This document shows positions 19,001 to 44,537 of a DNA stretch of 64,000 nucleotides, in pieces (the first letter of the stretch is position 1; each line of letters opens with the position of its first letter). Origin of the DNA: Octopus vulgaris (lineage: Eukaryota); contig OX597832.1 in the NCBI GenBank assembly GCA_951406725.2, forward strand, positions 53,816,001 to 53,880,000, read 5' to 3'. Made by a program: the position numbers.

Positions 19001-22000
19001 AAATTTTTAATTTCGTATACTGGTAGAATGTGTTTATAAAACATCTTTTTCACTTGGCTTTATTGAGAAAATTCTATAGTTTGTAAGATATTTGTTGTTT
19101 TTTCTTCAATTTCTGCAATTTCAACCAATCACTCACATCTATTGAGGTAAAAAAAACATTCTGTGCCATATGAATATGTCCCTCGTTTAAGAAACAGATT
19201 GGGTTTGTTTACATTTGGGAACAAAAAAAGATACCCTTCCGCCCACCCCTAACCCTGACCCTAAAACAGATTGAAATGCAATAGATCGATACTAGGGTCG
19301 TAATTATGGGTGACAATTTCATATGACACCGCTAGAAAAAAACTGCCGTTCAAACCGAAAAGATCCGGCATAGAGAGAAGTGAAACTCCATCCCACTATC
19401 AGAATTCATCGGCAACTCAACGAACCATACATTAAATGACCCCAACAATCATCTAGAACTTAAAGAACTTCAGAATAAACAACCCGCTATGGTCAGCTGA
19501 AATAGTGTTGCAAAGGCAAAACTTAAAATGGGAAAGGCAGTGGGGACAACTTATGCATAACAGAAAAACTAAATGTATTAACTTTACAAGTAAACATGTT
19601 TTTAGAACGGAAAGAAACCTTCTCCACCTGTCCACAAGCCAATGCTGTCAAACCACATACTTTTAAGCACTTCTCTGGTCTAGAAAAGTCTCAGCTCCAG
19701 CCTGTCTCATCCTGTAGCTTTTCCTCCTCTATATGAGTTATCTCCCTTGTTTTCTCAAACCACCCCCACCAACATTGATATATCCACCAGACACCCTAAC
19801 AATCTCCATATTAGGGGATGAATACATACTATAATCCCCTTCCCTTTCTCTAATATCCCTTTTCCCTTCAACCCCTATATCAAACACCAAGACCTTACAA
19901 TCAAGACATCTACATCTATATCCATGTTTTTATTTTGGTTTCAAATTCTGCCACAAGACCAGCAATTTCAAGGGAGGGTTTTAAGTTGATTGCTTTGACC
20001 CTCCAGTGCTCAACTGGTACTTCTTTTATCGACCCCGAAAGGATGGACAGTAAAGTCAACCTCAGCAGAATTCGAATTCAGAACGTAAAGACAGACAAAA
20101 ATGCTACCAGGCTTTAGTCCAGTGTACAAACAATTCTACCAACTCGCTGCCTTGTCTATGTTCTGTATTGGAATACATCTCATTACTTCAACATAAAAAC
20201 CATATGGCGTCTGGACATAAAACAAGATGAACTGTCATGAACTCTAGGCATCAACTTCCTATGGCCAACACATTATTATGAAATAAAATATAAACTGTCA
20301 CAATCTAAGTGTTGCCAAATAGAGAAGTGTCTGTTCACAGGAGGAGTAATATGACACCAGACCTGGGCACATATGGAAGTTTCTTAATTGAAACAGTTGT
20401 TATGTTGCTTTGTCACTCTCCTTTCCTACTCCGTCTACAACACCAAAAATTACCGAGTCCTCAAAGGTTACTTTTATAGATACCATTTATGCATCATACA
20501 ATCGCAATCTCCCATTGGTTTATTCCTTTATCAATTTTTCCTTTTATTTGCTTATTTCAGCTGTTGAACCATCCATTGGGTCCATTTCACTTCAAAACTC
20601 TGCTTCATCCAACTCACCTCATTCAATCATCACCACCACCACCACCACAACCACAACTTTAATGTCCACTTTCCCATGCCTGCATGGGTCAAATGAAGGT
20701 AATTAATTCTGTTCTACCAAACTTAAAACCATTTCACTATAGAAATCAGTCTGTTGACATTGTTTTGTTTGCTAGTTTCCTTTGTGTCATGATTCACAAT
20801 GAAGACAAATACAACCATAAAAAATCAATACTTTTCGAAAATAACTTATTCTACACAACTTGCTTGCTTTTCTCAGCTGTTTGTAAACTCTTTCTGTGGA
20901 TATTATTGTAAAAACTTGCCCAATACAAATCTGAAATCAATCCTCAGTCAAGTCTGTATTTGGATAAGTCTTAACAAAGATGTTAAAGAAACGAGATGGA
21001 TTTGTCTTGCTGTTCATAGTTGTTACCCTACAAACTATAACAGGTATGTTTGCGTTCATATATATATATATATATATATATACATACACATTCACCACTA
21101 ATTTGTATTATATTTTAGTATATATACATGTAATATATTGTTTGTTTTTATGTTCAGTTATATTAAAAACAGTTTTACTTTAATCTGATGGATTACTCTG
21201 TACTTTTGTAGAGTACAAATTTATTATTCTTAAACAAGAATGTTGTTGACAGTGACTTCGTAGTTTTGGCCAGCTAAGACATCATTGGACTGTGAAGCAT
21301 TAGAGTTAGTTTGAACTTCATATATTTTCTTTGGGTGTGTGGGTTTGAGTTGGGTGGTAATTAGGCTTTTGTGGTAGGTTGTCATGGACAAGTGTTTGGG
21401 AAAAATTTTTAATTGATTAGAACAGTTACGAGATAGTTTTTATGGAATACCACATGTACTTCTGTAATGTGGCCATCATCTAATGTCATGGGGAACCAGA
21501 TTTGGAATAGCTTTTGGTGACTGTTCTTCCCAATTTGAAACAGTAGTACCACTTGTGACATTGCATACAGATCAAACAATCTTTCCCATAGGCCCGCTGG
21601 AACATTAGAAAAATCTCTGTAAAAGTTTTTTTCCCAAATTGAAATAGAACTTCATAAAAAAACTGATGCTTTTCCAAACCTTTCACTCTTCAATTAACAA
21701 CAAATCGCTACACACATGTTCACCAGCATATATTCATACGGCATACATTTTCATAGATATATATGTTCACTAGACATATTTATTCATAATAGTTATATGT
21801 TCACTTGATATATCTTCATTAGACATATGTTCACTATAACCAAAGACTTTTTCATATGGCTGTTATTTAACTGAAAGTCAAGATCACCCATATAACAGCA
21901 TCACAGTCATAAACCCATTGCACCAGATGGTTGGTGCAGTTTTAAAAGTTTGGGTTCATTAATGGACAAACCTTGTAATCTTTTATTTCATCCAATCTTT

Positions 22001-42912: not shown

Positions 42913-44537
42913 TGTATGTATAAACACAAACATACCTGTTATAGTTTGTAGGGTAACAACTATGAACAGCAAGACAAATCCATCTCGTTTCTTTAACATC
43001 TTTGTTAAGACTTATCCAAATACAGACTTGACTGAGGATTGATTTCAGATTTGTATTGGGCAAGTTTTTACAATAATATCCACAGAAAGAGTTTACAAAC
43101 AGCTGAGAAAAGCAAGCAAGTTGTGCAGAATAAGTTATTTTTGAAAGTATTGATTTTTTTCTTTTATTAACGAGAAGTTGAAATTACTTTACATCTTCAC
43201 CTGAAACACTTTATATTGACTTTTTATGGTTGTATTTGTCTTCACAGTGAAACATGACACAAAGGAAACTAGCAAACAAAACAATGTCAACAGACTGGTT
43301 TCTATAGTGAGATGGTTTGAAGTTTGGTAGGACAAAATTAATTACCTTCATTTGACCCATGCAGGCATGGAAAAGTGGACATTAAAATTGTGGTCATGGT
43401 GGTGATGATTGAATGAGGTGAGCGGGATGAAGTAGAGTTTTGAAGTGAAATGGACCCAATGGATAGTTCAACAGCTGAAATAAGCAAATAAAAGGAAAAA
43501 TTGATAAAGGAATAAACCAATGGGAGACTGCGATTGTATGATGCATAAATAGTATCTATAAAAGTAGCCTTTGAGGACTCAGTTATTTTTGGTGTTGTAG
43601 ACGGAGTAGGAATGAGAGTTTGTGGACGTCTTTAGAATAATAATGTAAAAGTTCAACAATCAGACATTCTGCATGGATGGATGTTTAGTGCTGAAAGCTG
43701 GGATGTGGAGCCAGGGTTCACCTTCACCCTGTGTCAATCGATGATGATCATGTACGAGTCAGTCACCATGCATCCCTTCCCTGGTCATACACTGCAAACA
43801 CCTACTTACTATATCACCATATTCTTTCATTTGAAGTTCACAGCCGTTGTATAAGCAACATGACTACACTTAGATTGACAACACTTAGATTGTGACAGTT
43901 TATATTTTATTTCATAATAATGTGTTGGCCATAGGAAGTTGATGCCTAGAGTTCATGACAGTTCATCTTGTTTTATGTCCAGACGCCATATGGTTTTTAT
44001 GTTGAAGTAATGAGATGCATTCCAATATAGAACATAGACAAGGCAGCGAGTTGGTAGAATTGTTTGTACACTGGACTAAAGCCTGGTAGCATTTTTGTCT
44101 GTCTTTACGTTCTGAATTCGAATTCTGCTGAGGTTGACTTTACTGTCCATCCTTTCGGGGTCGATAAAAAAAGTACCAGTTGAGCACTGGAGGGTCAAAG
44201 TAATCAACTTAAAACCCTCCCTTGAAATCGCTGGTCTTGTGGCAGAATTTGAAACCAAAATAAAAACATGGATATAGATGTAGATGTCTTGATTGTAAGG
44301 TCTTGGTGTTTGATATAGGGGTTGAAGAGAAAAGGGATATTAGAGAAAGGGAAGGGGATTATAGTATGCATTCATCCCCTAATATGGAGATTGTTGGAGT
44401 CATTAGGGTGTTCAGTGGATATATTAATGTTGGTGGGGATGGGGTTTGAGAAAACAAGGGAGATAACTTATACTTACCACAGCCACTATCATCGTTTAAC
44501 GCCTGCCTTCCATGCTGACATCTCTCTCTCTCTCTCC

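What the first reader, a model, noticed from the sequence alone, without database searches (positions are those of the whole stretch)
19732..44471. ~25-kb interrupted palindrome placing an intact serpin and its pseudogene tail-to-tail
Seen: 19.7-27.9 kb is the reverse complement of 29.2-44.5 kb in colinear blocks. The symmetry runs inward almost to a foldback at ~29035. Each arm has its own TE insertions, which argues for a real, aged duplication rather than a read artefact. The right arm holds the intact serpin (-) and the left a frameshifted copy (+). Inference: this is a foldback-primed inverted duplication. Read-through or convergent transcription would create several kb of near-perfect dsRNA over the serpin CDS and 3' region. 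That RNA is a candidate endo-siRNA source or ADAR substrate, and coleoids are known for heavy A-to-I editing. The arms might also repair each other by gene conversion.
Basis: partly seen in the sequence, partly recalled or inferred. Interest (0 to 1): 0.75.

Follow-up and report, generated by a model that had tools for sequence, protein, structure and literature searches.

The report
Old inverted duplication of octopus serpin
An octopus genome carries a genuine, old mirror-image duplication of a whole protease-inhibitor (serpin) gene in which one copy still works, the other recently broke, and the two copies have swapped sequence; it is a clean but fairly ordinary example of a known kind of structure.

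Summary
Window 19732-29036 is the reverse complement of 29038-44472 in seven colinear blocks plus a self-complementary apex. Each arm carries a complete serpin transcription unit: two alternative first exons and one body exon, arranged tail-to-tail. The right copy is intact (385 aa; Pfam Serpin E=1.2e-105). The left copy has a T5->T6 insertion and an 11-bp deletion over the predicted P1/P1' site.

The structure looks real and old:
- Arms differ by 4.4% (outer) to 8.4% (inner) in substitutions.
- A 412-bp tRNA-derived SINE with an 8-bp target-site duplication sits in the right arm only; the left arm has the empty site.
- The broken copy shares four derived residues with the O. sinensis orthologue; the intact copy shares none.

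A 1.7-kb tract over the gene is only 1.3% diverged, against 6.2% around it (0 of 200 permutations). This supports arm-to-arm gene conversion. The fold-back origin is plausible but not shown. The dsRNA, siRNA and ADAR idea is untested and structurally unfavoured. A 240-bp hairpin in the intact copy's intron is a more direct dsRNA source. Interest is modest.

The parts
19732..29036 (+). Left arm of the palindrome (9305 bp; 6362 bp alignable to the right arm)
29038..44472 (-). Right arm of the palindrome (15435 bp; 6573 bp alignable)
28740..29300 (.). Apex: self-complementary 561 bp. The axis lies in a (TG)n|(CA)n junction at about 29033-29050. There is no asymmetric spacer.
20662..20697 (+). Left copy, alternative first exon 1a (MSTFPCLHGSNE). 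GT donor, phase 1. It overlaps a dispersed-repeat motif.
20980..21042 (+). Left copy, alternative first exon 1b (signal-peptide-like MLKKRDGFVLLFIVVTLQTIT). GT donor, phase 1.
22697..23862 (+). Left copy, body exon: the serpin pseudogene. It has a 1-bp insertion (T5->T6) at 22960 and an 11-bp deletion between CCAG repeats at 23753/23754, which removes codons 347-350 (PVSA) at the predicted P1/P1' site.
43347..43382 (-). Right copy, exon 1a
42937..42999 (-). Right copy, exon 1b (signal-peptide-like)
36092..37267 (-). Right copy, body exon. AG acceptor at 37269-37268, internal ATG at 37249, stop at 36094-36092. Intact 385-aa serpin.
22536..24257 (+). Low-divergence (gene-conversion-like) tract, left arm: 22 substitutions in 1720 aligned bases
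35696..37428 (-). The same tract in the right arm. Coordinates were derived by hand from the gap list.
32213..32624 (-). 412-bp tRNA-derived SINE in the right arm only, with an (ACAA)n tail and an 8-bp target-site duplication CTGCAGCA. The empty site is at L 27077-27084.
37563..42530 (.). Right-arm-specific 4968 bp inside intron 1 (the left counterpart, 21420-22405, is 986 bp). It is a mosaic of dispersed repeats, microsatellite and a local tandem duplication.
37557..38047 (-). Hairpin element in intron 1 of the intact copy: 238-nt arms, 97% complementary, 15-nt loop, about 290 nt upstream of the body-exon acceptor. Absent from the left arm.
27923..28739 (+). Left-arm-specific 817 bp next to the apex. 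It contains a SINE-like repeat (28168-28568) and is flanked by a ~90-bp duplicated segment.
23991..23996 (+). AATAAA 129 nt after the left copy's stop codon
35958..35963 (-). AATAAA 129 nt after the right copy's stop codon

Best explanation
This is a real, evolutionarily old palindromic segmental duplication inside an Octopus serpin cluster.

One event copied a complete serpin transcription unit in inverted orientation. The unit comprises about 0.9 kb of upstream sequence, two alternative first exons, one body exon and the 3' flank. The copy left essentially no spacer.

Since then the arms have decayed asymmetrically. Repeats inserted in one arm or the other, and the region around the axis was rearranged.

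The gene-bearing 1.7 kb was later homogenised by arm-to-arm gene conversion. After that, the left copy acquired two frameshifting lesions and became a pseudogene. The right copy remains an intact serpin that is probably inhibitory.

Shown: the structure, the lesions, the exon map, the arm-specific SINE, the divergence heterogeneity and the residue polarisation.

Inferred: that one event made the palindrome, that the low-divergence tract is gene conversion, and the order of events.
For: Structure.

Complete gene in both arms: exons 1a and 1b and the body-exon acceptor have canonical GT/AG sites and matching phase 1. They were mapped exon by exon against the O. sinensis model P0001 and the Amphioctopus fangsiao protein P0004.

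The right copy is intact: Pfam Serpin E=1.2e-105 over profile positions 3-370 of 370, and PDB serpins down to E=1.8e-63.

Lesions in the left copy.

Age and reality:
- Substitution divergence is 148/3343 (4.4%) in outer sequence and 79/940 (8.4%) in the inner blocks. Published octopus nucleotide diversity is 0.07-0.26% (PMC13669787, Table 1 passage).
- A SINE with a target-site duplication is in the right arm only, with the empty site in the left arm.
- Of 9 amino-acid differences scored, four (codons 109, 240, 261, 269) are derived states shared by the left copy and O. sinensis. None is shared by the right copy and O. sinensis.
- Homology ends sharply at 19732 and 44472, and the outer flanks are unrelated.

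Conversion:
- The tract L22536-24257 has 22/1720 substitutions (1.3%), against 107/1739 (6.2%) in the rest of the block. The log-likelihood ratio is 31, and 0 of 200 permutations reached it.
- The tract includes about 160 bp of intron and about 395 bp of 3' flank, which together have 7 substitutions.
- Synonymous divergence is 4/229, below the flank rate (one-sided binomial p=0.012).
- dN/dS is 0.63 and not distinguishable from 1 (10 non-synonymous, 4 synonymous, p=0.50).
Against: There is only one assembly and no reads, so neither the structure nor the two lesions can be verified independently. The 1-bp lesion is a homopolymer length change, which is a common assembly error type.

Divergence rises towards the centre: 4.4%, then 8.4%, with 59 mismatches in 263 aligned apex positions. 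A single-age duplication does not predict this without further assumptions. Those could be more conversion in the long outer blocks, or a pre-existing inner inverted repeat.

The low divergence of the tract could partly reflect constraint on the coding sequence and UTR. With 14 coding differences, the dN/dS test has little power.

The polarisation rests on amino-acid states of one predicted O. sinensis protein. I could not see whether O. sinensis has one copy or two.
Confidence: 0.8

Rival explanations
1. Assembly artefact. Either two haplotypes of a single-copy locus were joined in inverted orientation, or a chimeric fold-back read was assembled.
For: There is only one assembly and no read support (no tool for it). 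A spacerless axis is what a fold-back chimera would give. An arm-specific SINE could in principle be an insertion polymorphism.
Against: Arm divergence of 4.4-8.4%, plus kilobases of arm-specific sequence, is 17-120 times the published octopus nucleotide diversity. It is far from the near-identity a chimeric read would give. Homology stops sharply at both outer ends with unrelated flanks, whereas haplotigs would stay homologous. The left copy shares 4 derived residues with another species' gene and the right copy shares none.
Confidence: 0.05
2. Two-step origin. An older, short inverted repeat around the axis existed first. That would be the apex and the inner blocks (27126-27922 / 29174-30177). 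It later mediated the inverted duplication of the outer, gene-bearing sequence by fold-back or template switching, so the inner part is simply older.
For: The inner blocks are about twice as diverged as the outer ones (79/940 against 148/3343, Fisher p=4.9e-6). Three human fold-back junctions used ~300-bp inverted repeats (PMC3907307 passages).
Against: The inner blocks are not a recognisable repeat family in this window; only fragments of about 78 bp occur elsewhere. The inner homology blocks are short and interrupted. Reduced gene conversion there would give the same gradient. Much of the low apex identity comes from a local rearrangement in the left arm.
Confidence: 0.2
3. The palindrome is a regulatory locus whose read-through or convergent transcripts form kilobase dsRNA over the serpin, feeding endo-siRNA production or ADAR editing.
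For: The block 22406-25877 / 34029-37562 would pair over about 3.5 kb if both arms were on one RNA. The genes are convergent. In Drosophila, hairpin-RNA loci made from inverted duplications of target genes are known (PMC10317233 and PMC10292708; search listing and abstract starts only).
Against: The two mRNAs have the same sense relative to the gene and are not complementary to each other. One RNA would have to run more than 12.2 kb past the stop codon, through a conserved AATAAA 129 nt downstream in both copies, and across SINEs and microsatellites. No Rfam family was found in 17-47 kb. No expression, small-RNA or editing data could be consulted.
Confidence: 0.06
4. The arms are the long terminal inverted repeats of a large foldback-type or other TIR transposon that captured a serpin.
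For: Long inverted arms with almost no spacer. The genome is rich in small inverted repeats.
Against: There is no target-site duplication at the outer ends. No transposase or other Pfam domain was found: 0 of 9 arm ORFs tested had a hit. The arms are unique genic sequence with introns, not tandem subrepeats. There is no other copy in the window.
Confidence: 0.02

Closest known systems
Large palindromes of mammalian X and Y chromosomes with arm-to-arm gene conversion (for example the human X palindromes in PMC8327919; passages read)
   Same: Inverted arms of about 10 kb or more carry a protein-coding gene family. There is evidence of sequence exchange between arms. Structural change is concentrated around the centre of symmetry. 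Here the inner third carries most of the arm-specific sequence and a local rearrangement.
   Different: Arm identity here is 94-96% in blocks and 98.7% only in a 1.7-kb tract, not above 99%. The spacer is essentially absent, whereas the human X spacers span 77 bp to 358 kb. One copy is a pseudogene. The chromosome (autosome or Z) is unknown. The organism is a cephalopod.
Fold-back inverted duplications (PMC3907307; passages read)
   Same: An inverted duplication whose junction lies at short inverted sequence. Here the axis sits in a (TG)n|(CA)n junction.
   Different: All 21 sequenced human junctions had an asymmetric disomic spacer of 766-70466 bp and were terminal, arising from a dicentric intermediate. 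This one is interstitial, is symmetric to within about 10-20 nt of the axis, and is fixed in a germline genome.
Clade-B-like (ovalbumin-type) serpins such as PAI-2/SERPINB2 and SERPINB3. Database names for the octopus orthologues are 'leukocyte elastase inhibitor' and 'serpin B3'.
   Same: Full-length serpin domain. The best solved relatives are PAI-2 and SERPINB3 (E about 1e-63). The body exon has its own ATG without a signal peptide. The hinge EKGTDAHAAS resembles inhibitory serpins (the consensus is recalled, not tested).
   Different: The whole serpin body is in a single exon. Two alternative 5' exons would add either a 12-residue leader or a signal-peptide-like leader. The latter is present in the A. 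fangsiao protein P0004. The target protease is unknown.
Drosophila hairpin-RNA (hpRNA) endo-siRNA loci (PMC10317233; abstract start only)
   Same: An inverted duplication of gene sequence.
   Different: As I recall, hpRNA arms are a few hundred bases and lie in a single transcript. Here the arms are whole genes with their own promoters, with 3' ends 12 kb apart. No small-RNA data are available.

Membership tests
Serpin (Pfam PF00079) | Full-length match to the serpin domain profile above the curated cut-off | tested here: met
   Right copy: E=1.2e-105, 354 bits against a cut-off of 27, profile positions 3-370 of 370. PDB serpins down to E=1.8e-63.
Serpin (Pfam PF00079) | A reactive-centre loop with a hinge of small residues, and inhibitory activity | not testable with these tools
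   The hinge EKGTDAHAAS aligns to EEGTEAAAGT of PAI-2. Activity needs a protease assay. The consensus hinge and the PAI-2 P1 residue are recalled, not from a call.
Palindromic segmental duplication with arm-to-arm gene conversion | Two long arms in inverted orientation, colinear, flanking one axis | tested here: met
   Seven colinear blocks plus the apex. Arms are 9.3 and 15.4 kb.
Palindromic segmental duplication with arm-to-arm gene conversion | Arm-to-arm identity above 99%, as in the mammalian sex-chromosome class | tested here: not met
   Substitution divergence is 2.4-12.5% per block. Only the 1.7-kb tract reaches 98.7% identity.
[quoted passage not shown]
   Change-point tract: 22/1720 against 107/1739, with 0 of 200 permutations reaching the observed value. 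The non-coding parts and synonymous sites are also low. The footprint is what was tested; conversion itself is inferred.
Fold-back (hairpin-primed) inverted duplication | [quoted passage not shown] | tested here: not met
   Symmetry runs to within about 10-20 nt of the axis. Human cases had 766-70466 bp. A very short loop is not excluded.
Fold-back (hairpin-primed) inverted duplication | Short inverted homology at the junction | tested here: inconclusive
   The axis lies in (TG)n|(CA)n low-complexity sequence, which is inherently self-complementary. The ancestral single-copy state is unknown.
Origin-dependent inverted-repeat amplification (inverted triplication) | A third copy in direct orientation adjacent to the inverted one | tested here: not met
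   Only two near-identical copies occur within the 64-kb window. The third serpin, at 17563-18732, is 38-39% identical (38% in the tblastn, 39% in the alignment).
Foldback/TIR transposon | A target-site duplication at the outer ends, and transposase or subrepeat-built arms | tested here: not met
   No duplication at 19732 and 44472. No Pfam domain in 9 arm ORFs.
hpRNA / endo-siRNA locus | One transcript spanning both arms, and 21-nt small RNAs from the stem | not testable with these tools
   No expression data.

The most novel reading that the evidence does not exclude
The palindrome predates the split from O. sinensis. It has persisted for roughly ten million generations because its arms act as a two-copy conversion system for a fast-evolving serpin. 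Variants of the reactive-centre loop are shuttled between arms, and either arm can serve as the working copy: the left type appears to be the annotated gene in O. sinensis, and the right type is the intact one here. In addition, dsRNA from the locus ties the gene to RNAi or ADAR control. The most direct dsRNA source is the 240-bp intronic hairpin of the intact copy; read-through across the axis is less likely.
Probability: 0.07. Interest if true: 0.7.

Novelty: new member of a known kind. Interest (0 to 1): 0.35.

Why it matters
Large gene-bearing palindromes with conversion between arms have been studied mostly on mammalian, bird and plant sex chromosomes. This is a well-resolved example in a cephalopod. 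It is almost spacerless, it is old enough to show how such structures decay, and it has a datable conversion tract and a recent pseudogenisation. As such it is a useful natural case for palindrome dynamics outside vertebrates.

It also documents an octopus serpin with alternative leader exons. One of them is signal-peptide-like and one is built from a dispersed repeat. This bears on how one gene might supply both intracellular and secreted inhibitor forms.

None of this overturns current understanding.

Tried and rejected
- Cluster look-up. I used the listing of cluster members to see whether the O. sinensis 90% cluster (7 member sequences) holds two gene copies. Whether O. sinensis has both arms therefore stays unknown.
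- Synteny in other octopus genomes. This was not attempted.
- Sex-chromosome lead. Large palindromes are enriched on sex chromosomes, and octopuses have a Z chromosome (PMC10925132, passages read; listing). The text gives no chromosome lengths to match against the 53.9- and 55.1-Mb contigs of the orthologues. Its supplements (bioRxiv) are closed. This is unresolved.
- Target-site duplication at the outer boundaries: none found.
- Pfam on 9 ORFs from arm-specific and inner segments: 0 hits. Rfam at gathering thresholds and ARAGORN over 17-47 kb: 0 hits each. ARAGORN also did not call the SINE head at 32.6 kb as a tRNA.
- Exact axis by ungapped scoring: several centres between 29035.5 and 29048.5 score similarly because of the TG/CA repeats.
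- Purifying selection as the sole cause of the low-divergence tract: set aside. Intron, 3' flank and synonymous sites are equally low and dN/dS is about 0.6. It is not excluded.
- Literature. 'octopus' + 'serpin' returned 80 papers, of which 15 were listed. I saw titles and abstract starts only, and none is about this locus. 'cephalopod / inverted repeat / ADAR / dsRNA' gave only general editing papers in the listing. These two searches are the only basis for saying I found no description of this palindrome. They are not exhaustive.
Exons were handled one by one.
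Full report
**What is there**

The window has no N. Region 19732-44472 is an interrupted palindrome. The repeat finder reports 152 inverted pairs in 15-50 kb; the longest is 805 nt at 98%. blastn of the left half against the right half on the minus strand gives one colinear chain of seven blocks. Substitution-only divergence per block is 2.4, 5.7, 4.3, 3.7, 8.0, 12.5 and 6.9%, going from outside to inside.

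The innermost element, 28740-29300, is self-complementary through ordinary, non-simple sequence (204 matches and 59 mismatches). Its axis falls in a (TG)n|(CA)n junction at about 29033-29050. Ungapped scoring cannot fix the axis to the base. There is no asymmetric spacer.

The left arm is 9.3 kb and the right arm 15.4 kb. Only 6.4-6.6 kb of each aligns.

**Arm-specific sequence**

The unaligned segments are:
- right 37563-42530, against left 21420-22405;
- right 30178-33437;
- left 25878-26689;
- left 27923-28739.

They are mosaics of dispersed repeats with other copies in the window, plus microsatellites. None of 9 ORFs tested from them has a Pfam domain.

One segment is a proven insertion. 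Right 32213-32624 is a 412-bp element with a tRNA-like head and an (ACAA)n tail. It is flanked by an 8-bp duplication, CTGCAGCA. The left arm has the uninterrupted empty site at 27077-27084.

Next to the axis, the right arm is contiguous. The left arm carries an ~0.8-kb insertion flanked by a ~90-bp duplicated segment. This accounts for much of the low identity at the apex.

The outer ends are sharp, with unrelated flanks and no target-site duplication.

**The genes**

tblastn with the right-arm ORF finds three serpin loci in the window:
- the intact right copy, 37249..36095 (-), 385 aa;
- the left copy, 22715..23859 (+), in three frames;
- a diverged paralogue, 17563-18732 (-), 38-39% identical (38%, 39%). 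It is intact (Pfam Serpin E=5.8e-125) and lies just outside the left arm, head-to-head with the left copy.

The right copy matches Pfam Serpin end to end (E=1.2e-105). Its best solved relatives are PAI-2 and SERPINB3.

The two arm copies differ by 14 substitutions in 1158 nt. The left copy also has a 1-bp insertion in a T run (T5->T6, at 22960) and an 11-bp deletion between CCAG direct repeats (at 23753/4). By alignment to PAI-2, the deletion removes codons 347-350 (PVSA), the predicted P1/P1' region. The identity of the PAI-2 P1 residue is recalled, not from a call.

**Gene structure**

The best database hit is an O. sinensis model, P0001 (97% identical). It starts with 12 residues that are not in the body ORF. 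The Amphioctopus fangsiao protein P0004 starts with a signal-peptide-like leader.

Searching these N-termini piece by piece places two alternative first exons in both arms:
- exon 1a at L20662-20697 and R43382-43347;
- exon 1b at L20980-21042 and R42999-42937.

Each has an ATG and a GT donor in phase 1. The body exon has an AG acceptor in matching phase. Each arm therefore holds a whole transcription unit with about 0.9 kb of upstream sequence. The right copy's intron 1 is about 5.7 kb and the left copy's about 1.7 kb.

Exon 1a overlaps a dispersed-repeat motif (6 matches in the window against 0.03 expected). 'Signal peptide' is my reading of the sequence; no predictor was run.

**Species and neighbourhood**

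The flanking paralogue is 388/390 identical to an O. sinensis protein. That protein lies on the same 53.9-Mb contig as P0001. The right-arm serpin is 373/385 identical to P0001. The difference between the two ratios is significant (Fisher p=0.0066). The window is therefore from a very close relative of O. sinensis, and the palindrome serpin evolves faster than its neighbour.

**Age and polarity**

One search scored nine amino-acid differences between the arm copies against four orthologues:
- Three are private to the left copy (codons 7, 67, 171).
- Two are private to the right copy (codons 17, 93).
- Four (codons 109, 240, 261, 269) are derived states shared by the left copy and O. sinensis.
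- None is shared by the right copy and O. sinensis.

A tenth difference, codon 346, lies next to a break and was not scored. There the right copy has D, while the left copy, O. sinensis and O. bimaculoides have N.

So the two lineages separated before this species split from O. sinensis. The O. sinensis model is of the left type, and the left copy broke only recently.

Taking 2.4e-9 substitutions per site per generation, the value quoted in PMC13669787 (passage), gives rough ages:
- about 9-18 million generations for the arms;
- about 2.7 million generations for the gene tract.

These are order-of-magnitude inferences only.

**Gene conversion**

Within the 3.5-kb block, substitutions are strongly non-uniform. 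A change-point scan picks out L22536-24257, with 22/1720 substitutions against 107/1739 outside it. The log-likelihood ratio is 31, and 0 of 200 permutations reached it. Fixed windows give the same result (Fisher p=1.4e-8).

The tract covers about 160 bp of intron, the coding sequence and about 395 bp of 3' flank. Its non-coding parts have 7 substitutions. Synonymous divergence is 4/229, below the flank rate (p=0.012). dN/dS is 0.63 and not distinguishable from 1.

This pattern fits a conversion tract better than coding constraint, although constraint is not excluded. Both lesions lie inside the tract, so they are younger than it.

**Divergence gradient**

Inner blocks are about twice as diverged as outer ones (8.4% against 4.4%, p=4.9e-6). 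There are two readings:
- Conversion has been more effective in the long outer blocks than in the short, interrupted inner ones.
- The inner inverted repeat is older and mediated the outer duplication.

I cannot separate these without an outgroup.

Concentration of structural change around the axis matches what is reported for primate X palindromes (PMC8327919, passages).

**Origin**

A hairpin or short-inverted-repeat mechanism is compatible with the spacerless axis. Against it, all 21 sequenced human fold-back junctions kept a spacer of 766-70466 bp (PMC3907307, passages). An interstitial palindrome also needs a second junction. No third, direct copy is present, which argues against an inverted-triplication mechanism. 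The origin stays inferred.

**The dsRNA idea**

The two genes are convergent, but each mRNA is sense, so they do not pair with each other. A hairpin RNA needs one transcript to run more than 12.2 kb beyond the stop codon. It would have to pass an AATAAA conserved 129 nt downstream in both arms. Nothing in the sequence supports this, and I had no expression data.

A more direct dsRNA source exists. A right-arm-specific hairpin at 37557-38047 has 238-nt arms at 97% complementarity. It lies in intron 1 of the intact copy, about 290 nt upstream of the acceptor. It folds at -417 kcal/mol with z=-46, and 0 of 100 shuffles fold as well.

**Artefact check**

Arm divergence is 17-120 times published octopus nucleotide diversity (0.07-0.26%). 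Together with the sharp outer boundaries and the cross-species polarity, this makes a haplotype mis-join or a chimeric read unlikely. Only reads can exclude it.

**What stayed unchecked**

- The supplements of the Z-chromosome preprint are closed, so the chromosome assignment is open.

**Verdict**

This is a new member of a known kind: a palindromic segmental duplication with exchange between its arms. Interest is modest.

Noticed in passing
window 37557-38047 (-): A near-perfect 238-nt-arm hairpin with a 15-nt loop sits inside intron 1 of the intact serpin copy, about 290 nt upstream of the body-exon acceptor. It is absent from the left arm and has no other copy in the window. The RNA fold is -417 kcal/mol, z=-46. 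It is a candidate intronic dsRNA and ADAR substrate, or a foldback-type insertion.
   Followed up: partly
window 17563-18732 (-): A third, intact single-exon serpin lies head-to-head with the left arm. It is 38-39% identical to the palindrome serpin and has a classic inhibitory-looking hinge, EEGTEAAAATAA. It is 388/390 identical to an O. sinensis protein on the same 53.9-Mb contig as the palindrome serpin's orthologue.
   Followed up: partly
window 20658-20687, 43357-43386, 44787-44816; motif also at 3807, 44686, 56551: The start codon and most of exon 1a (MSTFPCLH...) lie in a dispersed-repeat motif, TTYCCATGCYTGCATG (6 matches against 0.03 expected). It is often preceded by a trinucleotide run. 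The alternative leader therefore looks like an exonised repeat.
   Followed up: partly
window 32213-32624: A 412-bp tRNA-derived SINE with an (ACAA)n tail and an 8-bp target-site duplication. It has no second copy in this window and was not called as a tRNA by ARAGORN.
   Followed up: yes
window 11727-13108, 38101-38382, 59320-59870: Long imperfect (TA)n/(TACA)n-type microsatellite arrays of 0.3-1.3 kb. They are self-complementary and cross-match each other, and they dominate naive self-comparisons of the window.
   Followed up: no
window 5817-6716 (+) and 1144-1878 (+): An ORF with an ISXO2-like DDE transposase domain (PF12762, E=1.3e-11), and a fragment with a weak reverse-transcriptase match (E=0.007, below the cut-off). 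These are mobile-element remnants upstream of the serpin cluster.
   Followed up: no
window 25919-26704: A tandem duplication of about 400 bp (94% identical) in the left arm only. Pieces of it are 95-98% identical to sequences at 4941-5056 and 10691-10785, which suggests a young repeat family.
   Followed up: no
window 36214 (codon 346 of the right copy): The intact copy has a derived Asp at the residue just N-terminal to the predicted P1. The left copy, O. sinensis and O. bimaculoides all have Asn. This could change target specificity.
   Followed up: no
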